Origin: Escherichia coli 042
Lineage (GTDB): Bacteria > Pseudomonadota > Gammaproteobacteria > Enterobacterales > Enterobacteriaceae
Length of the DNA: 64,000 nt
Direction: 5' to 3' (one strand)
NCBI RefSeq assembly: GCF_000027125.1
Contig: NC_017626.1
The notes below the pieces were generated by a model. It did not search any database, had not been told where the DNA came from, and worked only from the letters and a program-made list of their open reading frames with translations. Shown one piece after another: positions 7,923 through 37,555 of this stretch. The translations under genes were made by a program, and so were the position numbers. The stretch's first letter is position 1. Each line of letters starts with the position of its first letter.

Positions 7923-9139
7923 TCCTTCCTCCTTTCTTTCATACGCTGCAGATAACGTTCATAGTGCCGGGGTTTGTTCGGACTGAAGGAGAGGGTACGG
8001 CACCAGAAATCATTCTTTATGAGAGTCTTACAGATACGTCGCCAGGACGGAATATCCCGGCTCCCCAAGTCATTCTCCTGTTCATCCGGGATGTCATCCG
8101 GGAAGCCCCGCGTCTGATACCAGCGCAGATAGACAGCTATCTTGTTGCGGTAATGTTCTGCCGTTCTTTCCGGCATCACATCCAGCAGAAACATCGCATA
8201 GCTGCGCCAGGTATGATGGGCTGGTTTTGATATGCGCTTACGCAGGGCAAAATAAGCCCCGCTTTCATTGGCATAAAGTGCCCCGCTGGCAGCCCCTGAC
8301 ACCCGCTCACACATCCTGGCCCAGGTTTCCGGCTCCAGAACATGGTAAAGCCACAGTCCCTTACGTTGTTCAGGACCAAAAGGTTCACAGACACGCATGT
8401 TGCGTAACGGTACGCCGGCACGGTACATCAGGTCATACAGGGGATTGTAGATGGCACGGGTTCTGGTGTGATATATCCAGATATCACGAGTTTTCCAGTC
8501 ATACAGCGGATACATGGTGTAGTAAAACCCTTCAGGCGATGCCGTGGTCCAGGGCTTATCATCGGCGTATCTCAGTTTGCGCTGGGATACCAGTCCCATG
8601 AACCGGTTAAGGGACTCATCCGCACGGACACCGGTCAGTACTGCCACACCACATTTATTGTCTGCAAACCAGGAAGAAAATGCCGGAACAAATTCTTCAA
8701 ACGTCATGGCATACCGGTAAAAGGGAAAATACGCCATATCTGTAATGGCCCCCTCCGGTGGCTGGCGAACCCACTTCACACCAGACTCCCAGCATATCCA
8801 CTCCGGCTGAAACTGAGAAACACCGTTTACCGTGGTCAGGGGAAGTGCCACCCAGTAAAAGGTTTCCGTCACATCATGGTACATTTCCCGCATCTTCTGA
8901 ATATGTTCAATGGTGCACTGGTACTGAGCCTCCCAGTCAATGAACAGTACAGAGAAACGACGTTTTTTCCTGCGGGCCACATCAGCCAAAAGATGGAAAA
9001 GCACGGTGGAATCTTTACCACCGGAAAAAGAGAGACAAACTGATGGAAATGTTTCAAAAATCCACTCAATACGAGCAATTGCTGCACGCAGAACATTCTC
9101 TCCAGTAAGGACTTTCTCCGTTAAAAAATTATCATTCAT
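7907..9139 (-). CDS. ibrA: PAPS reductase-family PP-loop ATP-pyrophosphatase-like protein, IbrA-like
   Basis: 410-aa ORF with PP-loop motif SFSGGKDST near the N-terminus; size and pairing with a ParB-like gene match the ibrA/ibrB pair. Confidence 0.75.
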   Translation of the reverse strand: MNDNFLTEKVLTGENVLRAAIARIEWIFETFPSVCLSFSGGKDSTVLFHLLADVARRKKRRFSVLFIDWEAQYQCTIEHIQKMREMYHDVTETFYWVALPLTTVNGVSQFQPEWICWESGVKWVRQPPEGAITDMAYFPFYRYAMTFEEFVPAFSSWFADNKCGVAVLTGVRADESLNRFMGLVSQRKLRYADDKPWTTASPEGFYYTMYPLYDWKTRDIWIYHTRTRAIYNPLYDLMYRAGVPLRNMRVCEPFGPEQRKGLWLYHVLEPETWARMCERVSGAASGALYANESGAYFALRKRISKPAHHTWRSYAMFLLDVMPERTAEHYRNKIAVYLRWYQTRGFPDDIPDEQENDLGSRDIPSWRRICKTLIKNDFWCRTLSFSPNKPRHYERYLQRMKERRKEWGIL

Positions 9140-9279
9140 TTATTTTTACTTTATGCAAAAGAAACCTGTTTATGCTTTCAACATATAGCAACAAACATTA
9201 AATGACGTTTAATTAGCCACTACTAAAATTGCTTACTTTCATCCTGATGAACATATAAAACATATTACAAACATATTTA

Positions 9280-9987
9280 TCAATAAAGAATCTTTATTGA
9301 TGATACTGGCACTGTAACAATCCCATTGAGAGAACGATTTATAACCACCCACTCATGTGGTTCAACCAACCAGGAGTTTACATGTTTTGAATCAATAAAA
9401 TCATGGCAATATAATATATCTGAAGCAGGTATATCCAACTCCAGTTTAACACGTCCGTGATATTCATCCGCATCATTAAAAGAATTCAATATATCCATCT
9501 CAAAAGAAATCACATCCTCCCCTCTTATCTCTGCTGTTTCTTTTAACTCAGCAATCGTATCTGCATACCTGCCATTAAGTTTCCTGCCTAACTGGATAGT
9601 TGTGATTTTCTTTTCGTTGCAGCATCGCTGAGTATGTTCATATATAGCCATCACTTCCTGGCAAATACAATCAACTTCTATATCACTCAAAGAATTATAT
9701 ATGTCCATAACTTTTCTCTCATAATGCAAAAAAAGATTAAATATACGATAATGAGAGAGCAAATCAGAATTTGTTACTTTCGTTAAGAATAAAGTTAATA
9801 AAACATAACCTACCTGTTTACTACCATTAAACCCAATAAAATCACTTCTCACATCTCCTTTCAATCTACCAGTTCCGATACAACGAGCTAACAATTCACT
9901 CCTGACATTATATTTACCATTCATATTCACCATACTATTCGAAACAACAGACGAACATCCAAAAGCGCTTAAACACTCCACAAACAA
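9280..9987 (-). CDS. Hypothetical protein (AT-rich gene upstream of ibrA)
   Basis: 235-aa ORF, markedly lower GC than ibrA; no recognisable motifs. Confidence 0.4.
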   Translation of the reverse strand: MFVECLSAFGCSSVVSNSMVNMNGKYNVRSELLARCIGTGRLKGDVRSDFIGFNGSKQVGYVLLTLFLTKVTNSDLLSHYRIFNLFLHYERKVMDIYNSLSDIEVDCICQEVMAIYEHTQRCCNEKKITTIQLGRKLNGRYADTIAELKETAEIRGEDVISFEMDILNSFNDADEYHGRVKLELDIPASDILYCHDFIDSKHVNSWLVEPHEWVVINRSLNGIVTVPVSSIKILY

Positions 9988-10040
9988 ACTATCTCACCGA
10001 ATAAATTGCAACACTCCCCTTACCCCACATCCTAAAGGCT

Positions 10041-10964
10041 TTATATAAAACAGTAAAAGTGAATCAGCTTAACAAATGCATCTTTCATTTGTTTTTGCTG
10101 CTGCTCGCTTCCATTCTGGTTGCGGACTTCACCATAGTGACACAACTGTTCTTCTGCCAGGATATGCCGGTTAAAAGCCTGCATGATGCCAGACACCTCC
10201 GTTTTCAGCTCACTGACCGTCATGTATTTTCCCCGCTGTTCATCCGGACGGTTCAGGCGCTCAGCCAACAGCTGTAAGCGGGTCATGCCTTCGTTCCAGC
10301 CAGTCATCGCCTCTTCCGGGAGCGCACGACTCCTTGCACTCTTCTGCCAGTTATCCACCATTTCCTGAACACGAGGATTGTCGGGGAAAAGTACCATCAG
10401 TTGCTGCAGCAATTGCACACTGCGTTGCAGGTTGTATGCCGGGGGGAATTCTGTCAGTCGCGTTATCTGCTGACCGGAAAGGGTTATCCACTCTGACGCA
10501 TGATTTAACAGTGTTCTGCTGAGCTGCATCATCTGGTCTGCTGAAAGCACATCCGGTGAGGGTGTCAGCAGCGCCCTGAGTTGCTGCTCCGCCGGTGATG
10601 GCTGTGTCAGAAACTGCCATCCCGGAATGGCCACGCAGACCGCCAGCAATGCCGTACAGACACCTGTAACAAACGTTTTCAGAAACGTGAGCGGGGATTT
10701 TTGAAGGAAGAGTGTGGGCTCTGTTTTTGTTTCAGAAACAACATACACCAGACGGGAGTGCGGCAGGGTCTGATGTTCCTGCACATCCGGAGCTTCAAGC
10801 CTGAGTGCCTGCGCCAGTAGCGTTACCGGAGACGATACTTCCCCCTGCACAGGCTGGTTCTCCAGGCGGGTGATATATCCCTTCACCATGGCTTCCGGTA
10901 AAGCCACTTTACTGCTCTGTTTAAGTTCGTGCCAAGCCTGCGTATTTTCATGGAAGGAGATCAC
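10041..10964 (-). CDS. Hypothetical membrane protein; possible C-terminal portion of a VasL-like (ImpA_N + TM) protein
   Basis: 307-aa ORF with one predicted TM segment (TFVTGVCTALLAVCVAIPGW); track start is GTG; overlaps the upstream ImpA_N-like ORF in another frame. Confidence 0.4.
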   Translation of the reverse strand: MISFHENTQAWHELKQSSKVALPEAMVKGYITRLENQPVQGEVSSPVTLLAQALRLEAPDVQEHQTLPHSRLVYVVSETKTEPTLFLQKSPLTFLKTFVTGVCTALLAVCVAIPGWQFLTQPSPAEQQLRALLTPSPDVLSADQMMQLSRTLLNHASEWITLSGQQITRLTEFPPAYNLQRSVQLLQQLMVLFPDNPRVQEMVDNWQKSARSRALPEEAMTGWNEGMTRLQLLAERLNRPDEQRGKYMTVSELKTEVSGIMQAFNRHILAEEQLCHYGEVRNQNGSEQQQKQMKDAFVKLIHFYCFI

Positions 10965-11388
10965 TCAGTGTCTTCAGGAATGTTTCGGTCTGATACAGCA
11001 GGGGCAGGTTGTCACGGTTATCCGGAGGCATGGCCCGGAGCGTTTTTTGCAGACGGTTGAACAGACCGGTAATAATTTCCAGCCGGGAGTGTGTATTCAG
11101 CGGCCACATCACTGACCAGTGATGCCGGGTCAGCGCAGCAATCAGAGCCAGCCCTTCATTCAGACCACTTAACCCTGTTGTATGCATCCGGGCAATGGTG
11201 TACCAGGATGCCGTCTGTAATTCCACGCCATTGTGTTCATACAGACGCAGGCAGAGCGTTTCCACGTAACGCCAGTCCACATCAGGGCGTGCCGGGTGGG
11301 TCAGTTTGCTGATTTCATCGCGCAGGGCAGCATAATCCGGTAATGACCGGGGGTCACCACCGGTTTTCAGTTTCACTTCAGAAGTCAT
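10948..11388 (-). CDS. ImpA_N-like domain protein (TssA/VasL N-terminal domain family); possibly the N-terminal portion of a frameshifted gene
   Basis: 146-aa ORF; pattern DYAALRDEI...DVDWRYVETLCLRL...GLSGLNEGLALIAAL resembles the ImpA N-terminal domain as recalled. Confidence 0.4.
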   Translation of the reverse strand: MTSEVKLKTGGDPRSLPDYAALRDEISKLTHPARPDVDWRYVETLCLRLYEHNGVELQTASWYTIARMHTTGLSGLNEGLALIAALTRHHWSVMWPLNTHSRLEIITGLFNRLQKTLRAMPPDNRDNLPLLYQTETFLKTLSDLLP

Positions 11389-11781
11389 CGGCAGATTCAG
11401 TGTTTAGGTATTAAACCATTGTTAATTATAGGGAGAGAGTCAGTGCGATACCGTTACCCAGGAAAGGTATTCCACTGCGCAGATGATTGCCGGTGTCACA
11501 TCCCACCGCCGTTTCAGAACCGGTAACAGCTCATTAAGGTTTCTGATATAACGCTCAGTGAAAACCGGACTGATTACAGGTAATGGTGATATGACAGGTA
11601 TCGTTGCCAATATACACGGCTTCCAGAGGTATGAATCTTACATTCCAGTACCAGGAGTACGGCGAGTGGTTCAGATGAAAAAGACGCATCTGAATATCGT
11701 TAAATAACGGGTTCATGGCGAATTAAATAAACCTGATAATAACAGTATGGGGAAAGTCCGGAATAAAGAAATGGTCCGGTA

Positions 11782-13569
<1,788 letters not shown>

Positions 13570-13627
13570 AAACGCACCTTAATCTGCGAACAAAAAAAAG
13601 AATCATCACCGACACCCACGACGTTAT

Positions 13628-14021
<394 letters not shown>

Positions 14022-17807: not shown

Positions 17808-18002
17808 CAGAGCATTTTCTGTTACAATCTCATATGATAAAAATTAAACGGACTAGCATTGTTACTATGCGGTATGCATAAAATGATAAACGTTCGGAGG
17901 AGCCTAACTTAAACCATTACATAGGCATCATTAACAATATAAGGTTTAATTTCCACTCCCCGCAGACGAAGAAGCACTTGATGTACATCTGCCGGATCCA
18001 AA

Positions 18003-18224
18003 CTAGGATGATAATCCTATACCTGAGGGAGACATGGAGGGACTAACCGTCGCAGTCGTTGCCCATGAATGTACTTTATCACCTATATAAGCCCCTGCAA
18101 TAGAACCAAATCCCGGGCTAATAAACGTACCTGCAAGTGAACCAATAGCAATTAATTCTGCCTGCCCGTCATTCCCGTCACCTCCAGATATTTGTTTTAT
18201 TTCATTTTCAGATAGTTTTCTCAT
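18003..18224 (-). CDS. mcmA: Microcin M precursor (double-glycine leader, Ser-rich C-terminus)
   Basis: 73-aa product from internal ATG: MRKLSENEIKQISGG leader then DGNDGQAELIAIGSLAGTF...SPSGIGLSS, matching microcin M as recalled. The 133-aa track ORF is an upstream extension. Confidence 0.8.
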   Translation of the reverse strand: MRKLSENEIKQISGGDGNDGQAELIAIGSLAGTFISPGFGSIAGAYIGDKVHSWATTATVSPSMSPSGIGLSS

Positions 18225-18294
18225 TTCAACACCTTCGCTATAAAATTTGTGAAGAAGTAAAAATTCACGTTTAACCACAACGATAAAAATGTAA

Positions 18295-18441
18295 CTACAA
18301 GTGATAAAAAAACATATATAGATTAAAAAAATTATATCTATAGTAATAACTAAGATATAATGACACCGGAATATAAAAGAACAGATAATTGATAACAAAA
18401 GCAATCACTGTTATTTTTATATCCTTCTTAACCTCCCCCAT
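18295..18441 (-). CDS. Candidate small hydrophobic immunity protein (McmI-like), below the ORF-track size cutoff
   Basis: Hand translation: ATG 8 nt after aaggag gives a 48-aa ORF (MGEVKKDIKITVIAFVINYLFFYIPVSLYLSYYYRYNFFNLYMFFYHL) between the mchF stop and the mcmA start. Confidence 0.4.
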   Translation of the reverse strand: MGEVKKDIKITVIAFVINYLFFYIPVSLYLSYYYRYNFFNLYMFFYHL

Positions 18442-18476
18442 CGACAAAACTCCTTACAAAGTTACACCAGTGGATT

Positions 18477-20591
18477 TTAAATAGAAATAATCCTGTCAAC
18501 AGTTCTCAACGTAGTTTCTCTGTGTGCAATAATCACCCGGGTGATATTCATTTTTTTTATGGCAGCATTCACGAAACGTTCACTTTCTGTATCAAGAGAA
18601 CTTGTAGCCTCATCCATAAATAATATTCCAGGTTTCCGGTATAAAGCTCGGGCAATGAATATACGCTGTTTTTGACCGCCGGAAAGACCTTCCCCCAGTT
18701 CACCTATTAACGTTTCATACCCCATTGGCATTTTCATTATCACATCATGAATATGACTTGCTCTGGCACATTCTGTCATCCATTCGTCGTCTGTTTCTTC
18801 TGCAAACCCACAGATATTTTCACGAATTGATCCTGAAAATAGCCGGTCGTCCTGCATAACACAGGCTATCATACGGTGATAATTATTTATTCCAAGTTGA
18901 CGTATATCCGTGCCATTAACCAGTACTTTTCCACTATCTGGTTCAAACAGTCCACATAATACTTTCATTAATGTGGTTTTTCCGGCACCGGAGGCACCAG
19001 TTATAGCCACACTTTCTCCCGGAGCCACAGACAAATTCAGACCACTGAATACCTGTGCTGACTGGCTGTCATACCGGTAGCTTAAATCAGTGGTTTCCAG
19101 TGAAACCGGGCTCATGTCAGCAACGATTTCAATTTCCGGTTTCTTTTCTTCCTTTTCATGTAGTGCAATATCTGCAATGCGCTCATTATGCAGACTCATT
19201 ATTCTCAGTTGAAGAAGAAAACTGGTCAGCGAAGCAACCCGATCCGAAAACTGCCCACGAAAAGAACCAAATGCCACAAACATCCCTATTGTCATCTGAT
19301 TATCGATCACAAGGCTTGCACCCAGCCATAAAATCGCCACCTGATCACAGGCGGCAACAAAAGTATTTATCCCCCCGAAGAGCAAATCCATCTTGGTTAA
19401 CTTAATACCTGAATTGATCGCATCTATTTTCAGGTTAAGCCAGTGTGTTCCCCGGATCCCAGCCATACCTTGGATTTTTACCGTGGCAATACCATACAGG
19501 CTTTCCATAAAATAGGAGCTGGCCCGGGCCCCCCTGACAAGAGTTTCTTCCGATATTTGCCGGTAATAGCCGTATGTCACCAGACGAATAAGAACGTAAA
19601 CCATGGTAAAACCGAGCACTATCCAGGTAAGATATCCTCCATATAACAGCATCATCACAAAAACACCCACAACCATAATACTGTCCATGATTGCCCCAAC
19701 CACACAGGTGGTAAAGGTGGCCCTCAAAGTGTCAAGGGAGCCAAAACGCGACTGGATATCACCTAATTTACGGCGTTCAAAAAACGCCAGCGGCAGTCTG
19801 AGAAGATGGTTAAACAGACCCGACTGCCACTGTATATTGATGAGCGTGCTCATAACCAGTGAGGACCATGCACGCAGCATACTCACCGCGGCCCTGAGCA
19901 ATATAAAGAACATCAGGCCAGCAGAAATAAGCGTCAGCAGCCCTCTGTCCCCCGCCGGAATCGCATGATCCATAACCAGCTGAGTCCCCACCGGCATTAC
20001 CAGATTGATTGCTTCAATTACAACTGACAGACAGAAAATTTTCGCCAGTGTTCTTTTAATACCGTAAATACTGTTAATCAGTGAACGGAGACTTATGCGG
20101 ATCTGCTGGGTTTCCGCCAGGAATTCACTTCCAGGCCAGACCTCAAGTGCAATGCCCGTAAAATACCGGCTCATTTCCTCCCGACCGAGATATCTTCTGC
20201 CTCTGGCCGGATCATGCAGTACATAACGGTTACGCTTTACGCTGACCAGCACGACAAAGTGACTGAAATCCCAGTGGAGAATACACGGCATTTTGAGGGC
20301 ACCAAGTTCATCCAGCTCCAGTGAAAGAGCCCGGGTGACCATCCCCAGCTGCTCCGCTATTCCATTGATTCCTGCAAGGTTTGCTCCACGGGCCGAGAGA
20401 TTAAACTTCCGGCGAAGAGATATCAGGTCAATATTCTTACCAAAATGACCGCATATCATTGCCAGGCAGGCCAGTCCACATTCAGCGGTCTCCGTCTGAT
20501 GAATAACCGGAACACGACGTCGCCAGCGCATATCAAGCTGATTTATAATTTGTCTGAAACTCCCGTTAGTCATTGAGCGGTCCTGTTGCAC
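18477..20591 (-). CDS. mchF: Microcin ABC exporter with N-terminal C39 peptidase domain (CvaB-like)
   Basis: 704-aa ORF; C39 motif around [18 protein letters not shown], six-TM region, C-terminal ABC ATPase ([17 protein letters not shown]). Confidence 0.9.
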
Positions 20592-21840
20592 TGTGTTTCA
20601 TGTCATAGAAAGGAGAAAGCATCCACTGGTAAATACGCCTTTTTTCCAGAAATAGTGTACTTTCGGCTTTCATTCCATTTTCCAGAGGGAGGTATTTTTC
20701 GTCATATCTGATAATCTGCTTTTCAGGCATCGCAATGACTTTATACCAGGGAACAGAGGCGCCCGGCGTATTCTGTGGTGCACCCTTATAGGTCAACATT
20801 TCCTGTGTTGACGCAGGAGTCCTGGATATAGTTTTAACCGTAGCAGAGAACTGCCCAAATTTTTCTGCCGGAAAGGCTTCATAACGAATATTCACTTTGT
20901 CACCAGCCGAAATATAAGGAACAGCATCATTTGGGACCCAGAGAATAAGATAATAGTTTTCAATGTTCTCAGGAATAACCTGCAGAAGGCTGTCTCCGGT
21001 ATTGACCATTTGCCCGACAGTGACACTCAGGGAGTCAACTTTCCCGTCAGTCAACGCCCGGATAATAATTTCGCCCTCCACATCAGTGTTAACCAGTTCT
21101 TTCTGTAACTCGTACCGTTGCAGTTCCATCTGGTAGATACGGTTATCAAAATCTGCAGCCTGAGTCTGAATCTGACTCTCCAGAGTGGTTATCTGCAGGG
21201 CATTCTGTTCGTTCTGTCCGCTCAGGCTGAGAAGATTGTTTTGTTGCTGATAATATAATGCCACCTGGTTAGTTAACTGATCTTTATTAATCAGCCCTTT
21301 TGCCTGATAGTTTCTGTAATTCTCCATATTGTTTTTCATTATTTTTATCCCTTCCTCTGCACGCTGTATAATATCTGATGAGCGACGAAACGCATCTGTG
21401 TATTGCAGACGTTGTTTTTCCAGGGTATCTAACGTTATTTTTTTACTTTCTTCCAGACGGGAAATAATGTTGTCCACACGAACCAGCTGATTTTCTATAT
21501 CCCGCCGATGATTATCAGTGACAATACCACTACGTGTACTTTTACTGATGTCAATCAGATAAACAGGATCCCCTTTTTTTATCAACTGCCCTTCATGAAC
21601 AAATTGCCTGACAACAAATCCCTGTACACCTGAATATATATTGACAGCTCTTGGCCAGGTTGTGACCTCACCACTGACATTAACACGGCGGCTATAGGTA
21701 CCAACAATAATGAACATCAGAAATGCCGTAATAAACACAATGCTTCCCAGCATGATTAACCATAGTGGTATTCCGGGAAGTAATATTGCCCGTCCCTGCC
21801 ACTTCATTTTTCTGTTTTCTAAAGCATCCTGACGAAACAA
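20566..21840 (-). CDS. mchE: HlyD/CvaA-family membrane fusion protein for microcin export
   Basis: 424-aa ORF with N-terminal TM and coiled-coil-rich periplasmic region; overlaps mchF start. Confidence 0.85.
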
Positions 21841-21992
21841 AATAGCTCCTCTTACTCACACTTTTCCTGTAATACCTTCACTGATTAACCGAAACGCTAT
21901 AATCAAAGCCAGAAAATACAGAGTCCTGTCAAAATAGTATCAGCGATGCATTTACCCCGTAATTTACAATTATCTCTGTATCTTCAGAGGTA

Positions 21993-22445
21993 CTACGTTT
22001 TATGCAGCCGCTCAGGGATGTATGTCACAATTTTCTTTCGCCTGCTTAACCATCGTACTTCTCCTTCCCCCCATGGCTGAAGCTGTATGAGATAGTCAAT
22101 AACTTTTCGACCAAAGCCTGGTTTACAACAGAAATCCAGGATCCAGATCCTTCCATCTTCATTCCATTCAGACGGATGCAACCTGAATTCTGGATCCCTG
22201 AGCAGGCGCGCTTCCGTATCAGCCTCAAGATATGCCCAGGTTATATACGCCAGTGGAAAACCTCGTGAATCAAACAGGAATTTAATCTGATTATGCTGTA
22301 TCGCATATTCAGTCCAGTATTGAATGGTTAACACCGGATACAGACTGTAATTACGATTGTAGAGCATACAACTGACCGCAAAACCTATCTGTTCATAAAC
22401 AGTCCATTCATCTTTTCCTCTGATGGTTTCCCTTATATAAGACAT
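21993..22445 (-). CDS. mchD: HlyC-like acyltransferase-family protein (microcin maturation, MchD/MceI-like)
   Basis: 150-aa ORF at the position and size expected for mchD in the mchCDEF operon. Confidence 0.65.
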   Translation of the reverse strand: MSYIRETIRGKDEWTVYEQIGFAVSCMLYNRNYSLYPVLTIQYWTEYAIQHNQIKFLFDSRGFPLAYITWAYLEADTEARLLRDPEFRLHPSEWNEDGRIWILDFCCKPGFGRKVIDYLIQLQPWGEGEVRWLSRRKKIVTYIPERLHKT

Positions 22446-22470
22446 GATTACTATTTCCCTTATATATTTA

Positions 22471-24021
22471 TTACACTGTGTTTCTTATCGGTTCAAGATA
22501 TCCAAATGCATCTCTGGAAAACTTAAGCATAAAATTTTTCATATCAGAAATTGCTTCTTGTAAAAAAAGGGGATCATCGCCATGATTATCCAGCAGGATG
22601 GCAATTTTTTCGCACATATTCTCTTTCCTCAGCTCTTCCCTGGGTTGCAGCCTTTTCATGGTATGATGTTCAATTTCTTTCAGGAGTAATGAAGCATTTA
22701 TCTGACGTCTGGTACTGCCTTGCGTCAGCCAGTGGATAGTCTGGGAAAAACACTGTTGTGCAACGGTGAAATAAACATCATTCTTGATGCTACTATTCAG
22801 TGCCTGCTTTTGATTATGCCTATGATGGATTAGCGTCACAACCAACTTTTGCAATGGTGAACCATCCTGATTGACAATATCTTGGGCATGTGATTTCTCG
22901 CAGTATTTATTGAGTAATGCAACAAAACTGTTAACCAGTTGTTTCAATATATCAGGTATCTCTTTTTGTGTTATAAATTCTCCAGGAATACCCAACAGTT
23001 CTAGATAACAGTAATAACATGCTTCATGAAAAGTTTTCTGAAATATCTCCTCAACCTTCAAACGGGCTGCAAGAGTGAAGTCAGGGTCAAACATATATTT
23101 TCCGATATACAAGCAGAGATCAGACAGCCCTTGCATAAGTACCATCGGTTCTTTTGCCAGTTCAGCTAATCTTAGTTTATACCCAAAATCAGCTGGGGAA
23201 TCTCCCGGAAACAGACAACTGAGTCCGTTAAAATCCATTAATCTGCCATCCATTGCAATATTAGAAGGAGAAGTTGTCAATCTCAGGAAACGTGTTCGAC
23301 AAAATGCCATTTGCCAGGCCTCACGACGTGCCAGTTCACATAATCCCTCAATGCAATAAATCCGGGGATCAGTTCGTGCTTCAGCATCAATTTCTTCCGG
23401 TGGTACAGGTAGATATCCTGGCAGCTTGTGGATCACAGATCTAACCCGACAGGCATCGTGAATTAACTGACTGGAATACTCCGGTTTTACTTGGAAGTAT
23501 GGTGCCCGTTCAAAATGCGCCGGGCGAACAACAGGCTCACGTACCAACAGGGCTCTTCGTGATTTCATACCGGAGCGCTCAAATGCCTTTTCAGTATAGA
23601 GATCTGTAAGTAAAACCGCCCGAACCCGCACAGCACTATAAGGTAATATTTGAGCCAGTACTTCTCCCCACAAAGCCTCATATATTGCATGAACAGCGCC
23701 GAGTGCACCATTAGAATGACGTTCGTCAGTACCTTCACCAACCAACGGATTACTTCCTATTCCTTTAACCTGGTAGTTACCATCAAACCCACAACGTGCA
23801 CCACCTCCATTACGCTGAATACCACTGCCACCATAGCGCTCTGCATGGAACACTTTGGCAGAAGCCGTACTGTCAGGATCGATAATATAACTGCAGGCAT
23901 TTTGCAGCTCGCCTGGATTTCTGACATCCTCTGCACACCAGATTAATGAGGACTTGATCTGCCTGGCAGTGAAAGGCACCAGGTTTTCATTCAGTTCAGA
24001 AAGTGAACACTGATGACTCAT
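22471..24021 (-). CDS. mchC: Microcin maturation protein (MchC/MceJ-like)
   Basis: 516-aa ORF immediately upstream of mchD, matching the mchC size and position. Confidence 0.65.
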   Translation of the reverse strand: MSHQCSLSELNENLVPFTARQIKSSLIWCAEDVRNPGELQNACSYIIDPDSTASAKVFHAERYGGSGIQRNGGGARCGFDGNYQVKGIGSNPLVGEGTDERHSNGALGAVHAIYEALWGEVLAQILPYSAVRVRAVLLTDLYTEKAFERSGMKSRRALLVREPVVRPAHFERAPYFQVKPEYSSQLIHDACRVRSVIHKLPGYLPVPPEEIDAEARTDPRIYCIEGLCELARREAWQMAFCRTRFLRLTTSPSNIAMDGRLMDFNGLSCLFPGDSPADFGYKLRLAELAKEPMVLMQGLSDLCLYIGKYMFDPDFTLAARLKVEEIFQKTFHEACYYCYLELLGIPGEFITQKEIPDILKQLVNSFVALLNKYCEKSHAQDIVNQDGSPLQKLVVTLIHHRHNQKQALNSSIKNDVYFTVAQQCFSQTIHWLTQGSTRRQINASLLLKEIEHHTMKRLQPREELRKENMCEKIAILLDNHGDDPLFLQEAISDMKNFMLKFSRDAFGYLEPIRNTV

Positions 24022-24291
24022 CTGGCAGTATTCTCCGTTTTAATTTTCATAAAAGAGTGTTCATAAAAGAGCAAGTAAGTGTCCTGACAGCTTCTTCCTT
24101 ATTACAGTAAAACTCTATTAATTACACATAAATTAATAATTATTTATCAACGACTGTAAATCATATCTTCATCAGTAAAGTGTTGAACATAAAAACACAC
24201 TTATAAATGGATCTTCTATCTGCTTTAAACGAAAGGGATATATTTTACAGGCACTATCGAAAAAGTGCCTGTAAAATAAATAAAATTATAA

Positions 24292-24519
24292 TTAGCTACC
24301 GCCACCAGCAGAAGAACTGGCACTACCACTTCCCACGGTCGAGCCAATTGCTGTTGTCAAACCGGCAGATACGGCTCCAACTACAACCCCAAGTGGACCA
24401 CCAGGTATTCCGGCGAGAGCTCCAACAATAGCTGCAGCACCTGCGGCATTAGCTGAAGTCGCTGGCGCACCTCCCGCCCCGGAAATATATCTTAACTGTG
24501 ATTCTGTTATTTCTCGCAT
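24292..24519 (-). CDS. mchB: Microcin H47 precursor
   Basis: 75-aa product from internal ATG: MREITESQLRYISGAGG leader then Gly/Ala-rich core ending SGSASSSAGGGS, matching MccH47 as recalled. Confidence 0.85.
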   Translation of the reverse strand: MREITESQLRYISGAGGAPATSANAAGAAAIVGALAGIPGGPLGVVVGAVSAGLTTAIGSTVGSGSASSSAGGGS

Positions 24520-24535
24520 ATAAACTCCATCATAT

Positions 24536-24745
24536 TTAACTTCCGTTTTTCCAGCCTGACCAGACCAGAATCTTTCGAATCCCATGAATCAGCTCAATAA
24601 AACCAAGAAATATTATAAAGCTTAGAAAAACGTCAACATAAGAATTCCCTTCGCCAACAATCCGAAGGGATGAAAGTGAAACCAATAAGATAGTAAGAGG
24701 TAAACTAAATATAGCCGTCAATTGGTACAGTTTTTTATAACTCAT
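24536..24745 (-). CDS. mchI: Microcin H47 immunity protein (small two-TM membrane protein)
   Basis: 69-aa hydrophobic ORF 16 bp upstream of mchB; size matches MchI. Confidence 0.75.
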   Translation of the reverse strand: MSYKKLYQLTAIFSLPLTILLVSLSSLRIVGEGNSYVDVFLSFIIFLGFIELIHGIRKILVWSGWKNGS

Positions 24746-25156
24746 TAATACCTACCTGTTGCTTTATTTTCATTATGAAAAGTTACCAAATCTTAGCGCT
24801 TCAGTCAGGGGAGTCAGGTCATCGATAAAGAATATTCCAGTAGAGTGGCGCTCATGATCAAAGACAACAGCAAAGTTGATGACAGTGCTGACCGACTGTC
24901 ATTTACAGTAACCCTGTTTGTAGCAAATTCCATCTTACCAGACCTCACCCAGACAAAGACAAAAGAGAATGATTGTTATTTACTTTTCAAAAAAAGTGTC
25001 ATATTGTCCATATAAAGTCAAGAGGTATTTTACGTTATGTAACTGATGCAATTGTTAGTCAGGATCTCATGGTTGTCGCTCATGTATAACCTGAGACTTG
25101 AACGTACACTAATAGCACTGACGGTCATACATCGGGAAATGTGAGGAGGCATAAGA

Positions 25157-25402
25157 ATGAATTGTGATAATAATCACAGAAATGAAGAATTCATTGTTAC
25201 CTTTGATAAAGGCAACAAGCAAGACAATTCAAGACGAAAACACGATAATTTTCCTATAGAGGTAGAATCCTCCGTAGAGCTGGAGACACACTGTATCACA
25301 AATAATAAGTCGGCTTCCGGTATAGTAACACATGACTATGATGCCGATTATATTTGTGGTTGTGGTGAAATTATGTGTCCTGGTTGCGGTCATGACCTAT
25401 AA
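25157..25402 (+). CDS. Small Cys-rich hypothetical protein (C-terminal CGCGEIMCPGCGH motif); possibly the mchS4 equivalent
   Basis: 81-aa ORF with strong RBS (gaggagg 7 nt upstream of ATG); C-terminal CxC-x4-CPxC motif suggests metal binding. Confidence 0.35.
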   Translation: MNCDNNHRNEEFIVTFDKGNKQDNSRRKHDNFPIEVESSVELETHCITNNKSASGIVTHDYDADYICGCGEIMCPGCGHDL

Positions 25403-25556
25403 CAAACATATTTGCAAACTGATACCTGATCAGGTACAAGCCTGTTGATTATTATGCTGAATATTCCAGTTATCAATCCATCGATATGAACATTAACAAG
25501 AAAAAACATATATTGTTTATCTGAATATTTATCGATGGAAAACCAAAGGGGAAAGT

Positions 25557-25991
25557 ATGTATCTTACGAAAAAGATTATAATAAGTATGATGTTTATATT
25601 ACCATCTGCTGCATTTTCATCAGATCCACCTCCCCTTCAACAATCGTTAGAAAAAACAACCTATTTTTCTATAGGTATGAATGGGTTTATAGGCTATCAG
25701 AGCGAAGGGGAAAAATTATACACACACATTCTTACATTAGATAATCCCGAAGAGATATTTAAAAATATAATAAAAAATAGAAAGTCAACTAAGGAGTCTA
25801 AAATTTATGCTGCTTGTGGGCTATATTATTTAAACGTAGAAAATATAGAGTCATTGTTTAATGAAAATGATAAACAAGAATATGTGTCTGTCTTAAGAGG
25901 GGATATTTTAACAAAAATAAAACTGAATGATATTCTGAATTCTGTGATAATAAATGGTTGCAACACCAAATTAATATCTGAACATAAATGA
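25557..25991 (+). CDS. Signal-peptide protein immediately upstream of microcin I47; possibly its immunity/accessory protein (MchS3-like)
   Basis: 144-aa AT-rich ORF with N-terminal hydrophobic signal; ends 17 bp before the microcin I47 precursor gene. Confidence 0.35.
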   Translation: MYLTKKIIISMMFILPSAAFSSDPPPLQQSLEKTTYFSIGMNGFIGYQSEGEKLYTHILTLDNPEEIFKNIIKNRKSTKESKIYAACGLYYLNVENIESLFNENDKQEYVSVLRGDILTKIKLNDILNSVIINGCNTKLISEHK

Positions 25992-26007
25992 GCAGGAGGT
26001 TTTTAAA

Positions 26008-26241
26008 ATGAGAGAAATATCAGATAACATGCTTGATTCCGTGAAAGGAGGGATGAATCTTAATGGATTACCTGCTTCTACTAATGTAATAGATCTACGT
26101 GGAAAAGATATGGGAACATATATTGATGCTAATGGAGCATGCTGGGCTCCGGATACTCCATCCATCATCATGTATCCGGGGGGAAGTGGACCTTCTTATA
26201 GTATGAGTAGTTCCACATCCAGTGCAAACAGCGGCAGTTAA
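26008..26241 (+). CDS. mchS2: Microcin I47 precursor (double-glycine leader, Ser-rich C-terminus)
   Basis: 77-aa ORF: leader MREISDNMLDSVKGG, C-terminus SMSSSTSSANSGS typical of siderophore-microcins. Confidence 0.7.
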   Translation: MREISDNMLDSVKGGMNLNGLPASTNVIDLRGKDMGTYIDANGACWAPDTPSIIMYPGGSGPSYSMSSSTSSANSGS

Positions 26242-26529
26242 ATAAATACCATCCGGCTATGCCGGAGGGTATTTATGATGTGCCTGTAAGACTCTACTTC
26301 TGTCGTCTCTTTACAAAGGCATATGATCTGACATTTTGTACCAGACATCTTAACGAGAGCCTTTTCATATATTACTTACATACGTGAAATCTACAGTATA
26401 AAGCAAAAATTTTATTAAACCTGTTTTATATTTATCATCAATACAACAGATTTAATTCCGGAAAGTCACTCATCACCCCTTGAATGAACGTCATTTGATG
26501 TATTATTCTTACACTTGGATTAATTTAAG

Positions 26530-27804
26530 ATGATACCTATGAAAAACTATCTTTTCCAGACTCCCGAAGATATTTGTGTACAGTTAAAAAAAATGACACA
26601 TCCTGTCACAATAAGAACAACAGATATTGCTAATTTCTGGCACTATCTTGAGTCAGCAACTCTTCCGGTGATCACAAAAAGCACCACTACAGAAAATCGG
26701 GAGGTTACATTTCTGTGGCGCTCAGAGAAAGCAGTGCAAGGCGTATATCTTCGCCTGAATCGTGTTACAGATAAAAAAGATGTCAAAAAAGGACTAATGA
26801 CTCATATCCCTTCGACAGATATCTGGATGCTGACACTGGTGTTACCAGCTTCATATCGGGGCTCATACTCATTTATAGAAATTCCCACAGATATGACACA
26901 AAAAGACATATTTCAACTAGGAAGTCGCTTCTCTCCATTACCCGGTAAATCTGATCCATTTAACAAAACAGCAGAAATAAATATACGAGGATTCGGAGAA
27001 TCAGTCCTTTCTCTTGATATGGCTCCTGAACAAAAGGAATGGGATGATACTTCCCATAAATGTACAGGTATTCTTTCAACATTACATTCCTTTGTTGCAG
27101 GATATCAACGCCGGATTCGTTTATATTTTCCCCAGAATCCAACATCAGTACCTCTTGGATTACTTGTGTTACCTGATGCTGAAATATGGTTTGACCGGAT
27201 GGATATTACCCGGGCATTAGATATGGCCATTACCACTGGTCATATTGCGCCAATGGCAATTATGGGGATAGACAATATTAATGAATCTGATCGTATGAAT
27301 ATACTGGGAGGCAATAAAGAACTTATCTTTGATATAGCGGAAAATCTGATACCCCAGTTATACAGAGACTACCCGAATATCGTATGGGCTGGTCGTTCTA
27401 ATACTATACTGGCCGGTCAGAGCCTCGGTGGAGTGACAGCACTGATGGCAGCTATATATGCGTCGACAACATTTGGTACAATCATTAGCCACTCACCTTC
27501 AATGTGGTGGAACCCTGACCAGGGCAGCCCGATTTTGTTTACTGAGAATGATATCTCCTGGGTAAGTGAGCAGATACTTTCAGCGCCTCCGAAAGATGTA
27601 AATATCCAACTTGGAGTCGGTTCTTTAGAAGGTACAACCGTCTCACATGTTCAGCGGTTGCATCAGTCGTTAATCGCAGCAGGTTTGGAAAGTAACCTCA
27701 CTGTCTATGCCGGTGGTCATGATTATGCCTGGTGGCGCGGAGCAATTATTGATGCATTAGCAAATTATAATTGCAGGAAGATATCAGATAATAACTTTGT
27801 GTAA
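26530..27804 (+). CDS. mchS1: Enterochelin esterase-like hydrolase (IroD/MceD-like) for siderophore-microcin maturation
   Basis: 424-aa ORF with esterase nucleophile motif (LAGQSLGG) in an alpha/beta-hydrolase-like C-terminal half. Confidence 0.7.
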   Translation: MIPMKNYLFQTPEDICVQLKKMTHPVTIRTTDIANFWHYLESATLPVITKSTTTENREVTFLWRSEKAVQGVYLRLNRVTDKKDVKKGLMTHIPSTDIWMLTLVLPASYRGSYSFIEIPTDMTQKDIFQLGSRFSPLPGKSDPFNKTAEINIRGFGESVLSLDMAPEQKEWDDTSHKCTGILSTLHSFVAGYQRRIRLYFPQNPTSVPLGLLVLPDAEIWFDRMDITRALDMAITTGHIAPMAIMGIDNINESDRMNILGGNKELIFDIAENLIPQLYRDYPNIVWAGRSNTILAGQSLGGVTALMAAIYASTTFGTIISHSPSMWWNPDQGSPILFTENDISWVSEQILSAPPKDVNIQLGVGSLEGTTVSHVQRLHQSLIAAGLESNLTVYAGGHDYAWWRGAIIDALANYNCRKISDNNFV

Positions 27805-34555: not shown

Positions 34556-34962
34556 ATCCGTTGTATCCTCCCTCAGGATGATTCTTATCAGAACATTTCA
34601 CCTGTCAGAATATTCCCGGTAATGTGATACAAGAGCCAGTCTCACCGGGTACCACGTGTTATTGCCCGTATCCTTTTACCCGTTACGAGTGTACAACCGG
34701 TTTTATATTTTGCAATCCAGGCCTGTTACACCAGAGCATCCTCTCACTGCCCCCTCACTGGTCAATCCGGGATTCAAATTCATCCTCCAGCACTAAACCC
34801 CATACCAGTCCTGAACCTTCCCTCGCCAGCAGCCAGACTCCTACTGTTCACCACAATCCTCTTCCGTGAATGGCCGTAAGTGCGCAGCACCAAAATAATG
34901 AGGTAGCCTGAGTTTAACGGACACTCCTTCCTGAAATAGAATGGCATCAGAAGGAGCTAATA

Positions 34963-35225
34963 ATGAGCAGAAAAACCCAACGTTACTCTAAAGAGTTCAA
35001 AGCCGAAGCTGTCAGAACGGTTCTTGAAAATCAACTTTCGATCAGTGAAGGCGCTTCCCGATTATCTCTTCCTGAAGGCACTTTAGGACAATGGGTTACC
35101 GCCGCCAGAAAAGGGCTCGGTACTCCTGGTTCCCGCATGGTGGCTGAACTGGAATCTGAAATTCTGCAACTGCGTAAGGCGTTAAATGAAGCTCGCCTTG
35201 AGCGAGATATATTAAAAAAAGCAAC
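34963..35225 (+). pseudogene. IS600-like orfA, interrupted near its 3' end by IS30
   Basis: HTH-type OrfA; reading frame runs into IS30 at 35226; original C-terminus (AYFAQESLKNSR) follows at 36447. Confidence 0.75.
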
Positions 35226-36446
35226 TGTAGATTCAATCTGTCAATGCAACACCCCTTTCAATTATCTCTTTCGGTGTTTTGAACTTCAGTGTCTTTCTCG
35301 GTCTGTTGTTTAGCTGAGCAGCAACCAGATCTAGTTCATGTTGAGTATATTGGGCAAGACATGTCTTTTTAGGAAAGTACTGCCGAATTAGCCCATTTGT
35401 ATTCTCATTTGTTCCCCGCTGCCAAGGACTCTGAGGATCGCAGAAGTAAACTTTAACGCCGGTGCTGACAGTAAATTCTAGATGTCTGGCCAGTTCCATT
35501 CCTCTGTCCCATGTCAGTGATTTTCTGAGTTCTGACGGTAAACTCAGGAATTTGTCGGTAAGAGCCTGATTTACTGAGACAGAATCTTTGCCCCTGAGTC
35601 TAAGGATGATCGTATAACGTGATTTTCGGTCTACAAGTGTGGCTATATGAGAGTTTTTTGTACCTGAGACTAAATCGCCCTCCCAATGCCCCAGAGAGCG
35701 TCTGTTATCGATATTTCGGGAACGTTCGTGAATTGGTGTTCCGTTCACTATGTTAATCGTACCTCTTTCGCCTTTGCGGGTATGACGCCTGCCATGGCGA
35801 AGGCTATGCGACCGTCGCAGATGCTGTATATTCAGGTGGTGTTGCGCTTCACGGCTACGAAAGTACAGCGTTTTATAAATTGTCTCAGGTGATATTCGCA
35901 GCGTTTTTTGACGTGGTTTTGTTCGCCTTAACCATCCTGATATTTGCTCTGGAGACCATTTCATCTCCAGCTTTTCCAGAACAAGCTTTCGCAATGGTAA
36001 ATTTTGATCCAGTAAGCACGGTTTTGGCCTTTTCGCCATTCTGTTGGCTCGGTTATTAGCATCAACAGCTTTGTAATAGCGTCTGCCCCGATTACGCTGA
36101 ACTTCACGTGAGATCGTCGAAGGACTGCGATTCAGCGCAGTAGCTATCGCACGAATGCTCATTTTGGCTGACAAACCAGCTCGTATCTCCTCGCGCTCAG
36201 ACAGTGTCAGGTGAGCTACAGCCCGCTTACGCTCATGGGGTTTTATGCCGCCAGTATCCCTTAACATAGTGAAGATCGTTCCGGGTTTTGAACCCAGGAT
36301 ATTCGCTATTTCACTGAAGCCTGTTCCGTTCTTCCATAGTTCAAAAACAGAGGCTTTTTCCTCTGCTGTAAATGTTCGTCTCATTCAAAAAACCTCCACA
36401 ACCCCATGTTTTCACATAACTGTTGCGTTGACCAATTGAATCTACA
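35226..36446 (-). mobile_element. IS30 (1221 bp) with 26-bp terminal inverted repeats and 2-bp AC target duplication
   Basis: Ends tgtagattcaat(c/t)... at 35226 (plus) and 36446 (minus); AC dinucleotide on both flanks; length matches canonical IS30. Confidence 0.9.
35233..36384 (-). CDS. insI: IS30 transposase
   Basis: 383-aa ORF (MRRTFTAEEKASVFELWKNGTGFSEIANILG...), the canonical IS30 transposase length and N-terminus. Confidence 0.9.
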   Translation of the reverse strand: MRRTFTAEEKASVFELWKNGTGFSEIANILGSKPGTIFTMLRDTGGIKPHERKRAVAHLTLSEREEIRAGLSAKMSIRAIATALNRSPSTISREVQRNRGRRYYKAVDANNRANRMAKRPKPCLLDQNLPLRKLVLEKLEMKWSPEQISGWLRRTKPRQKTLRISPETIYKTLYFRSREAQHHLNIQHLRRSHSLRHGRRHTRKGERGTINIVNGTPIHERSRNIDNRRSLGHWEGDLVSGTKNSHIATLVDRKSRYTIILRLRGKDSVSVNQALTDKFLSLPSELRKSLTWDRGMELARHLEFTVSTGVKVYFCDPQSPWQRGTNENTNGLIRQYFPKKTCLAQYTQHELDLVAAQLNNRPRKTLKFKTPKEIIERGVALTD

Positions 36447-36523
36447 ACAGCGTATTTTGCACAGGAGTCGCTGAAAAATTCGCGTTAATCGAACAATGGC
36501 GACAACAATTTCCCATTGAAGCG

Positions 36524-37342
36524 ATGTGTCAGGTATTTGGTGTATCCAGGAGCGGTTATTACAACTGGGTACAGCATGAACCCTCAGACAGAAAACAAAG
36601 TGATGAGCGGCTAAAACTGGAGATTAAGGTGGCACATATCCGCACTCGCGAAACATATGGAACCCGGCGGCTCCAGACGGAGCTGGCAGAGAATGGCATC
36701 ATCGTTGGTCGTGACCGACTGGCACGTCTTCGTAAGGAGCTAAGGCTACGCTGTAAGCAGAAACGCAAGTTCAGAGCGACTACGAACTCGAACCACAATC
36801 TGCCAGTTGCGCCAAATCTGCTGAACCAGACGTTCGCTCCTACAGCACCAAATCAGGTCTGGGTGGCGGACCTGACGTATGTTGCCACACAGGAGGGATG
36901 GTTGTACCTCGCTGGCATCAAAGATGTTTATACGTGCGAAATTGTCGGCTACGCCATGGGAGAGCGCATGACAAAAGAGCTGACAGGTAAAGCCCTGTTT
37001 ATGGCGCTCAGGAGCCAGCGCCCACCTGCCGGGCTAATCCACCACTCTGATCGAGGTTCACAGTACTGCGCATACGATTACCGGGTCATACAGGAGCAGT
37101 TTGGTCTGAAAACATCAATGTCGCGTAAAGGTAACTGTTACGACAACGCTCCGATGGAAAGCTTCTGGGGAACGCTGAAAAATGAGAGCCTGAGCCACTA
37201 TCGTTTTAATAACCGGGATGAAGCCATCTCAGTAATACGGGAATACATTGAGATTTTCTACAATCGTCAGCGTCGTCACTCTCGTCTGGGGAATATCTCC
37301 CCGGCAGCCTTCAGGGAAAAATATCATCAGATGGCTGCTTAA
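36524..37342 (+). CDS. IS3-family (IS600-like) OrfB transposase catalytic subunit
   Basis: 272-aa ORF with DDE integrase core (HHSDRGSQY, GNCYDNAPMESFWGTLK). Confidence 0.85.
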   Translation: MCQVFGVSRSGYYNWVQHEPSDRKQSDERLKLEIKVAHIRTRETYGTRRLQTELAENGIIVGRDRLARLRKELRLRCKQKRKFRATTNSNHNLPVAPNLLNQTFAPTAPNQVWVADLTYVATQEGWLYLAGIKDVYTCEIVGYAMGERMTKELTGKALFMALRSQRPPAGLIHHSDRGSQYCAYDYRVIQEQFGLKTSMSRKGNCYDNAPMESFWGTLKNESLSHYRFNNRDEAISVIREYIEIFYNRQRRHSRLGNISPAAFREKYHQMAA

Positions 37343-37555
37343 AAAAAGAACAAATGGTAGTGTCCGCTATTGCCAGTACACCTCATAAATCGGTACTTCC
37401 GATGACAGACAGTGAAAGCGTAAGGAGAAATATGAACATGAGAATGGAAGCAGATACATGACTTCAGGACGACTTTTTCAGAAAACGAGCTAAGGGCGTT
37501 GGCTGACGCCCTTACTGTGGCATAAGCTCAGGCACCGGATGCCGTTTTACAGGGT

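What the first reader, a model, noticed from the sequence alone, without database searches (positions are those of the whole stretch)
34899..37385. IS30 nested inside an IS600-like IS3-family element, both with intact target-site duplications
IS30 is exactly 1221 bp with matching terminal repeats and AC flanks, and it splits orfA of the host element. The host element is 1264 bp after removal of IS30 and its duplication, with TAA flanks. Intact duplications on both suggest relatively recent, successive insertions.
Basis: seen in the sequence. Interest (0 to 1): 0.3.

Follow-up and report, generated by a model that had tools for sequence, protein, structure and literature searches.

The report
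IS30 inserted inside an IS600 copy

Summary
Window 34899-37385 is a 2487-bp composite. A 1221-bp IS30 (35226-36446, transposase on the minus strand) is flanked by an AC duplication. It lies inside a 1264-bp IS600 that is flanked by a TAA duplication. Related E. coli strains carry the empty site with a single TAA.

Both elements are canonical. The IS30 has 3 mismatches to K-12 IS30A. The IS600 has 2 mismatches to common uninterrupted copies.

IS30 sits 5 nt after the A7 slippery run of IS600. It therefore cuts off the OrfA C-terminus and prevents synthesis of the OrfAB transposase. IS600 is left non-autonomous, while IS30 looks intact.

"Recent" is only partly supported:
- Only 5 of 5426 complete E. 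coli genomes carry this insertion at this locus.
- The composite nevertheless carries 4 private substitutions.
- No IS600-only intermediate was found at this locus.
- The same junction occurs in 330 genomes at many other loci, so the composite may have arrived already nested.

One added point: the insertion site is a recurrent IS30 hot spot. IS30 occurs at the homologous codon of five IS3-family elements. In three of them it occurs in both orientations, and K-12's IS911A::IS30A is one example.

Novelty: already known. Interest: low.

The parts
34896..34898 (.). Left copy of the 3-bp TAA target-site duplication of IS600
   Evidence: The empty site in ERP001 has a single TAA.
34899..35225 (+). 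IS600 left arm (nt 1-327): left inverted repeat starting TGAGGTAGCC, and orfA codons 1-87 (34963-35223)
   Evidence: 325 of 327 bases match the fragment annotated 'IS600' in K-12 MG1655. NCBIfam IS3-family transposase model, E 8e-12.
35214..35220 (+). A7 slippery run (A AAA AAA) of the IS600 programmed -1 frameshift. IS30 begins 5 nt downstream.
   Evidence: restored fusion frame of 385 aa. PGAP annotates a 'programmed frameshift' in the uninterrupted copy L005.
34963..35313 (+). Truncated orfA reading through into IS30: 87 native codons, then 29 codons spanning the junction and IS30, 116 aa in all
35224..35225 (.). Left copy of the 2-bp AC target-site duplication made by IS30
35226..36446 (-). 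IS30, 1221 bp, inverted relative to IS600. The right repeat lies at 35226-35251 and the left repeat at 36421-36446.
   Evidence: 3 mismatches to K-12 IS30A, none of them in the terminal repeats.
35233..36384 (-). IS30 transposase gene, intact, 383 aa. Differs from K-12 InsI1 by L181Q and V261L.
   Evidence: NCBIfam NF033563, E 3.5e-82.. PGAP protein WP_001254942.1.
36447..36448 (.). Right copy of the AC duplication
36449..37385 (+). IS600 right arm (nt 328-1264): last 13 codons of orfA, the orfB frame (open to 37342) and the right inverted repeat ending ...CACCTCA
   Evidence: NF033516 IS3-family transposase, E 7e-100. PGAP 'IS3-like element IS600 family transposase, missing N-terminus'.
37386..37388 (.). 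Right copy of the TAA duplication

Best explanation
Two ordinary insertion sequences are nested.

First event: an IS600 inserted at a TAA in the spacer between an acyltransferase gene and an inovirus-Gp2-family gene. The site lies in a microcin-H47 genomic island of an E. coli chromosome. IS600 is an IS3-family element of 1264 bp, with OrfA and an OrfAB transposase made by a -1 frameshift at an A7 run. The insertion made a 3-bp duplication.

Second event: an IS30 inserted into that IS600 copy, either at this locus or at an earlier one. IS30 is 1221 bp and encodes one DDE transposase. Its copy-out/paste-in mechanism with a 2-bp staggered attack comes from the literature. The insertion fell between nt 327 and 328 and duplicated AC.

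Why this position: it is the best match in the whole of IS600 to IS30's own target preference. The half-site is roughly TAAAAAAGGCN followed by the 2-bp duplication. The IS3-family slippery sequence plus the following GC supplies that half-site.

Consequences (inferred from the sequence):
- OrfA loses its last 13 residues.
- The slippery site is separated from orfB by 1223 bp, so OrfAB cannot be made.
- This IS600 copy is therefore dead as an autonomous element, although its two ends are intact and could be used by transposase supplied in trans.
- IS30 keeps intact ends and an intact 383-aa reading frame, so it is presumably still mobile.
For: Boundaries, lengths, inverted repeats, both duplications and the restored orfA/OrfAB frames.

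Family assignment: NCBIfam IS30 model at E 3.5e-82 and IS3 model at E 7e-100. PGAP names in identical records are 'IS30-like element IS30' and 'IS3-like element IS600'.

Near-identity to reference copies:
- 3 mismatches to K-12 IS30A.
- 2 mismatches in 327 to K-12's annotated IS600 fragment.
- 2 mismatches to many uninterrupted IS600 copies.

Empty site with a single TAA.

Hot spot:
- STEC2018-553 has IS30 at the same dinucleotide with the same AC duplication but in the opposite orientation. Strain 2013C-3033 has the same locus with an uninterrupted IS600.
- K-12 IS911A::IS30A sits at the homologous codon with an AC duplication.
- Scans of phage and genome collections show IS30 at the same position in five IS3-family elements, three of them in both orientations.
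- A weight matrix built only from 16 IS30 half-sites outside IS3-family elements ranks the real site first of 1238 positions in IS600, 13.9 against 7.3 bits.

Mechanism (2-bp duplication, hot-spot targeting, minicircle and dimer intermediates): PMC9333248.
Against: Nothing contradicts the nested structure.

What is not shown:
- That this IS30 copy is active. Its transposase carries a private L181Q change.
- That truncated OrfA is made or does anything.
- Where the IS30 insertion happened. No IS600-only intermediate exists at this locus in 5426 genomes, and in 3 of the 5 carrier genomes this is the only IS30 on the chromosome.

The published IS30 hot-spot consensus (Olasz et al. 1998) could not be read. 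The target profile used here is my own, built from few sites.
Confidence: 0.95

Rival explanations
1. One event at this locus. The IS600::IS30 composite was formed elsewhere. It then transposed here as a single 2487-bp unit using the intact IS600 ends and OrfAB supplied in trans by another IS600, making the TAA duplication.
For: - No IS600-only allele exists at this site. 5 genomes are occupied, all with IS30, and 503 are empty.
- The same junction in the same orientation occurs in 330 genomes and at least 8 contexts.
- A complete composite on plasmid pCP55-141k has its own perfect GAA duplication. It is base-identical to a chromosomal composite in the same strain, including a shared IS600 variant at nt 470.
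- In 3 of the 5 carrier genomes no other chromosomal IS30 exists that could have been the donor.
Against: - The hot spot is strong enough for repeated independent hits, and one in-situ hit is documented.
- From general knowledge, IS3-family transposases act preferentially in cis, so mobilisation in trans is inefficient.
- Sequence variants do not help. The IS600 part is only 2 mismatches from common solo copies.
Confidence: 0.38
2. An IS600 already at this locus acquired the IS30 insert by homologous recombination or gene conversion with another IS600::IS30 copy, not by transposition of IS30.
For: Recombination among these elements is common. Hybrid junctions exist with an IS600 left arm on one side of an IS30 and IS911 or another IS3-family element on the other.
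Against: - It needs an IS600-only precursor at this site, and none is seen.
- The private substitutions lie in both IS600 arms and in IS30. Nothing marks a conversion tract.
Confidence: 0.05
3. The nesting is an assembly artefact or a chance resemblance.
For: None.
Against: The identical 2487-bp structure with identical flanks is present in 5 independently assembled complete genomes. Both elements have canonical lengths, ends and duplications.
Confidence: 0.01

Closest known systems
IS911A::IS30A in the CP4-6 prophage of E. coli K-12 MG1655 (insN / insI1)
   Same: IS30 sits inside orfA of an IS3-family element at the homologous codon (...AAAAAAGGCTAC|IS30|ACCGCG), 263 bp into orfA in both cases. 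The AC duplication is the same and the frameshift fusion is lost in the same way. The interruption is described in PMC9333248.
   Different: The host element is IS911, not IS600. IS30 is in the opposite orientation relative to orfA. K-12's IS911A is also truncated, whereas the IS600 here is complete apart from the insertion.
IS911B / IS30D / IS600-fragment cluster in KpLE2 of E. coli K-12 MG1655 (insO, insI3, insM)
   Same: It contains the very same IS600 nt 1-327 | IS30 junction. The fragment is annotated 'IS600' and differs from the window's left arm at 2 of 327 bases. This junction type is found in 1284 of 5426 genomes.
   Different: In K-12, IS30 meets the IS600 arm with its other end (opposite orientation). 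The rest of IS600 is missing, and the other side of IS30D abuts IS911, so the structure is rearranged.
IS600::IS30 next to ISEc45 in E. coli STEC2018-553
   Same: A complete 2487-bp composite with the same insertion dinucleotide and AC duplication, and a TAA duplication around IS600.
   Different: IS30 is in the opposite orientation and the chromosomal locus is different. There the IS600-only precursor allele exists (strain 2013C-3033), which proves in-situ insertion at that locus.
IS600::IS30 at the yedS(porin)-hchA locus (for example KSC64, O104:H4)
   Same: The same composite, orientation and junctions, 5 substitutions from the window copy.
   Different: There is no target duplication around IS600 there (AGA against TAT). 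The locus recurs among the composite hits I listed or fetched, including O104:H4 strains, whereas the window's locus is occupied in only 5 genomes.

Membership tests
IS30 (IS30 family) | Length of about 1221 bp with 26-bp imperfect terminal inverted repeats | tested here: met
   1221 bp. 23 of 26 terminal bases are complementary. The ends are identical to K-12 IS30A.
IS30 (IS30 family) | Single long reading frame encoding an IS30-type DDE transposase | tested here: met
   383-aa ORF. NF033563 at E 3.5e-82, 276 bits against a cut-off of 80. 2 amino-acid differences from K-12 InsI1.
IS30 (IS30 family) | 2-bp target-site duplication | tested here: met
   AC on both sides. Removing IS30 and one AC restores the IS600 reading frames.
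IS30 (IS30 family) | Insertion into a hot-spot type target (nearly palindromic, according to the literature) | tested here: met
   A profile from 16 independent half-sites ranks the real site first of 1238. The published consensus itself could not be consulted. PMC9333248 describes hot-spot targeting only in words.
IS30 (IS30 family) | Transposition activity of this copy | not testable with these tools
   The ORF and ends are intact, but the private L181Q change has unknown effect.
IS600 (IS3 family) | Length 1264 bp, imperfect terminal repeats with TG...CA tips | tested here: met
   1264 bp after removing IS30 and AC, with TGAGG...CCTCA ends.
IS600 (IS3 family) | Two overlapping frames, orfA and orfB, joined by a programmed -1 frameshift at an A-rich slippery run | tested here: met
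   The restored element gives a 100-aa OrfA and a 385-aa OrfAB across the A7 run. PGAP annotates the frameshift in the uninterrupted copy. In the window itself the fusion is broken by IS30.
IS600 (IS3 family) | IS3-family transposase (integrase-type catalytic core) in orfB | tested here: met
   NF033516 at E 7e-100, covering profile positions 106-369 of 369.
IS600 (IS3 family) | 3-bp target-site duplication | tested here: met
   TAA on both sides, and a single TAA in empty alleles.
IS600 (IS3 family) | Near-identity to the reference IS600 sequence (ISfinder) | tested here: inconclusive
   ISfinder was not available. As proxies, there are 2 mismatches in 327 to K-12's annotated IS600 fragment and 99.8% identity to copies that PGAP names IS600.

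The most novel reading that the evidence does not exclude
IS30's target preference coincides with the programmed-frameshift window of IS3-family elements (TTAAAAAAGGC... followed by the duplicated dinucleotide). IS30 would then systematically land in and disable IS600, IS911 and their relatives across enterobacteria. This would be a general, sequence-driven antagonism of one insertion-sequence family towards another. It would also seed the IS30/IS3-family clusters and hybrid junctions seen in K-12 and many other strains. The targeting itself is well supported here. It is uncertain whether it has already been described (the key 1998 paper could not be read), and whether it has any selective meaning beyond coincidence.
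Probability: 0.3. Interest if true: 0.4.

Novelty: already known. Interest (0 to 1): 0.15.

Why it matters
For this window it matters little. It is an annotation-level fact that one IS600 copy has been inactivated by an IS30 in a microcin island.

Two practical points follow:
- Intact target duplications should not be read as evidence of recency.
- A nested element with intact outer ends may move as a unit, so 'two events at this locus' cannot be assumed.

The wider pattern is the only part with some general interest. Roughly a third of IS30 copies in complete E. coli genomes abut the frameshift window of IS600 or IS911-type elements. That estimate is confounded by shared ancestry. The pattern would explain why IS30 and IS3-family fragments are so often found together, and why they form rearrangement-prone clusters.

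Tried and rejected
1. Sequence variants cannot decide between in-situ insertion and arrival as a unit. The elements are too uniform. The IS600 part is 2 mismatches from many solo copies, and the IS30 part is 2 mismatches from many solo copies.

2. Looking for the IS600-only intermediate at this locus found none. This is absence of evidence only.

3. Literature searches for the published IS30 hot-spot consensus, or for any statement that IS30 targets IS3-family frameshift sites, found nothing. The consensus was not in the searchable library. PMC179709 is not held, and Olasz 1998 (cited from memory) did not turn up in the searches. Only the K-12 IS911::IS30A interruption is mentioned (PMC9333248).

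4. Rfam search for a frameshift-stimulating RNA in IS600 that IS30 might disrupt gave no match, in either the intact copy or the window.

5. Naming the third IS3-family target: PGAP calls it only 'IS3 family transposase'.

6. A search for further IS600 or IS30 copies inside the window found none.
Full report
**1. Observation**

- IS30 occupies 35226-36446 (1221 bp). Both tips read TGTAGATTCAAT, and 23 of the first 26 terminal bases match as an inverted repeat. AC is present at 35224-35225 and at 36447-36448.
- Deleting IS30 and one AC leaves a 1264-bp element with TGAGG...CCTCA tips. TAA is present at 34896-34898 and at 37386-37388.
- The restored element has a 100-aa orfA starting at 34963, an A7 slippery run, and a 385-aa OrfA-OrfB fusion frame.
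- No other copy of either element lies in the window.

**2. Identity**

- The minus-strand ORF 35233-36384 (383 aa) matches the NCBIfam IS30 transposase model at E 3.5e-82. The ORF 36524-37342 matches the IS3-family model at E 7e-100, and the orfA stub matches it at E 8e-12.
- The composite is 100% identical to a stretch in five complete E. coli chromosomes. There PGAP names the parts 'IS30-like element IS30 family transposase' and 'IS3-like element IS600 family transposase'.
- The IS30 differs from K-12 IS30A at 3 bases, none of them in the terminal repeats. Its transposase differs from InsI1 by L181Q and V261L.
- The IS600 left arm differs at 2 of 327 bases from the fragment annotated IS600 in K-12 MG1655. 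The restored element is 2 mismatches from many uninterrupted IS600 copies.
- The host is therefore IS600 proper, not merely IS600-like.

**3. Context**

The window is about 99.9% identical to the chromosome of E. coli BEC1-S17-ESBL-09. The composite lies in an intergenic spacer of a genomic island. An acyltransferase gene lies upstream and an inovirus-Gp2-family gene downstream. A microcin H47 / colicin-V-type gene cluster lies about 10-17 kb to the left, and a CP4-type backbone to the right (YfjP GTPase, DUF932, antirestriction protein, the CbtA/CbeA toxin-antitoxin pair).

**4.

- Empty site. A query joining the two flanks with a single TAA finds contiguous matches in 503 genomes. The best are 99.8% identical. 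In strain ERP001 the site reads caccaaaaTAA|atcggtac, with 2 mismatches in 800 bp. This fixes the IS600 boundaries and the 3-bp duplication.
- IS600 without IS30 at this site. A query of flank plus restored IS600 plus flank is fully covered in only five genomes, and all five carry IS30 (two aligned pieces). No intermediate was found.

**5. What the insertion does (inferred from sequence)**

- IS30 begins 5 nt after the last A of the slippery run (35214-35220).
- OrfA therefore loses its last 13 residues. It reads into IS30 for 29 further codons (ORF 34963-35313).
- The frameshift site is separated from orfB by 1223 bp, so the OrfAB transposase cannot be made.
- This IS600 copy is non-autonomous, but it keeps both ends.
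- IS30 keeps its ends and its reading frame.

**6. Why there: a hot spot**

Other occurrences of IS30 at this position:

- In K-12 MG1655, IS30A interrupts IS911A exactly 263 bp into orfA. That is the same distance as here, at the homologous codon, and with the same AC duplication (...AAAAAAGGCTAC|IS30|ACCGCG), but in the opposite orientation.
- In STEC2018-553, IS30 lies at the same IS600 dinucleotide with an AC duplication in the opposite orientation. Strain 2013C-3033 has the same locus with an uninterrupted IS600. That IS30 insertion therefore happened in place and independently.
- I scanned the phage-contig and species-representative genome collections for the IS30 left end. This gave 32 distinct flank pairs.
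- Many of those pairs lie at ...ATATTAAAAAA(A/G)GCnnn| in IS600, in IS911, in an IS911-like variant, and in an unnamed IS3-family element (OrfA MSGKRYPEEFK..., duplication GC). A further IS3-family element in Yersinia aleksiciae has a related window (...TTGTTAAAAAAGGCTTC|).
- IS600, IS911 and the unnamed element are each hit in both orientations.

Pooling 28 distinct half-sites gives the profile T-A-A-A-A-A-A-(G/C)-G-C-N followed by the duplicated dinucleotide.

To avoid circularity I built a weight matrix only from the 16 half-sites that are not in IS3-family elements. I then scored every position of the restored IS600. The real site ranks first of 1238, at 13.9 bits against 7.3 for the runner-up.

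The literature I could read confirms that IS30 has hot-spot targets, described as nearly palindromic, and makes 2-bp duplications. It also mentions the IS911::IS30A interruption in K-12 (PMC9333248).

**7. How common**

Counts are in 5426 complete E. coli genomes.

| Feature | Genomes |
|---|---|
| IS600 arm / IS30 junction, window's orientation | 330 |
| IS600 arm / IS30 junction, opposite orientation (includes K-12's KpLE2 cluster IS911B-IS30D-IS600 fragment) | 1284 |
| IS911-type orfA abutting the IS30 left end | 1012 |
| IS911-type orfA abutting the IS30 right end | 1214 |
| Any IS30 match (7790 places in total) | 3639 |
| Full 2487-bp composite in one aligned place | 155 |
| Uninterrupted IS600 | 1613 |

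These counts are heavily confounded by shared descent and by the many laboratory K-12 genomes in the collection. They show that the junction is old and widespread. They do not measure the number of independent events.

**8. Age and order of events**

The nesting order is certain: IS600 existed first and IS30 entered it. Where the second step happened is not resolved.

In favour of two events at this locus:
- The hot spot is strong.
- An in-situ hit is documented at another locus.

In favour of arrival as a unit:
- There is no IS600-only allele here.
- The same-orientation junction occurs in at least eight contexts: this island, yedS-hchA, the CP55_Sichuan chromosome and plasmid, ETEC plasmids, an ISL3-adjacent hybrid, TW14425 and NCTC9100.
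- The plasmid pCP55-141k copy has its own perfect GAA duplication. It is base-identical to the chromosomal copy in the same strain.
- In three of the five carrier genomes this is the only chromosomal IS30.

Sequence variants cannot decide between the two.

On recency:
- Only 5 of 5426 genomes are occupied at this locus, and 99.8%-identical empty alleles exist. The insertion is therefore younger than the diversification of the island.
- The composite carries four substitutions absent from every comparison copy examined. These are IS600 nt 240 (OrfA T59M) and nt 359, IS30 transposase L181Q, and one base upstream of the IS30 transposase start codon. For the IS30 pair, no copy outside this locus is closer than 2 mismatches.
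- Either the composite has sat somewhere long enough to accumulate these changes, or it came from unsampled donor variants.
- Intact duplications mean only that no later deletion or recombination has touched the ends. At yedS-hchA and in the CP55 chromosome, the same composite has lost matching duplications.

**9. Verdict**

The structural interpretation is correct, and the 'recent, successive' inference is only partly supported. Both elements, this kind of nesting, and even this exact junction are already represented in annotated genomes, including K-12. Novelty is nil and interest is low. The one thing worth keeping is the side observation that IS30's preferred target coincides with the frameshift window of IS3-family elements.

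Noticed in passing
window 35212-35225; loci L003, L004, L010, L021, L034, L036, L041, L047: IS30 is found at the homologous codion just after the slippery run (LKKA|) of five different IS3-family elements. In IS600, IS911 and an unnamed element it occurs in both orientations. The empirical IS30 half-site TAAAAAAGGCN+2 bp is mimicked by the IS3-family frameshift signal.
   Followed up: partly
L009, L012, L029, L030, L041 (K-12 KpLE2), L058, L061, L062: Some single IS30 copies are flanked by arms of two different IS3-family elements, or by two inverted IS600 left arms. Examples are an IS600 left arm on one side with IS911 or the unnamed element on the other. These look like products of recombination or IS30-mediated rearrangement between IS30 copies sitting in different IS3-family elements.
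   Followed up: no
window 34890-34898 / 37386-37395, and L005 2493-2504 / 3769-3780: Two independent IS600 insertion sites share the core A-TAA-ATC with TAA duplicated (AAAATAA|ATCGG here, CACATAA|ATCCA next to ISEc45). This may reflect an IS600 target preference or may be coincidence.
   Followed up: no
window about 18000-27800: By collinearity with NZ_AP022298.1, this stretch holds a microcin H47 / colicin-V-family bacteriocin cluster: mchB, mchI, mchF, an HlyD-family export protein and mchS3. The composite therefore sits in a microcin island.
   Followed up: no
window about 10000-13900: This stretch holds type VI secretion remnants (VasL- and ImpA-domain fragments), a 3'-5' exonuclease gene and a 261-bp integrase-core pseudogene. 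The same T6SS remnants (NCTC9100, L063) and a similarly annotated 3'-5' exonuclease gene (CP55_Sichuan, L006) lie directly beside IS600::IS30 junctions in those strains. This hints that the island segment has been reshuffled around such composites.
   Followed up: no
window about 9000-9300: The window carries an 11-nt length difference relative to NZ_AP022298.1 near 9.2 kb. Apart from that it is about 99.9% identical over 49.7 kb.
   Followed up: no
L056, L057 (ETEC and pig plasmids): On two plasmids the IS600::IS30 composite carries a third level of nesting: another IS3-family element is inserted inside the IS30 transposase gene.
   Followed up: no
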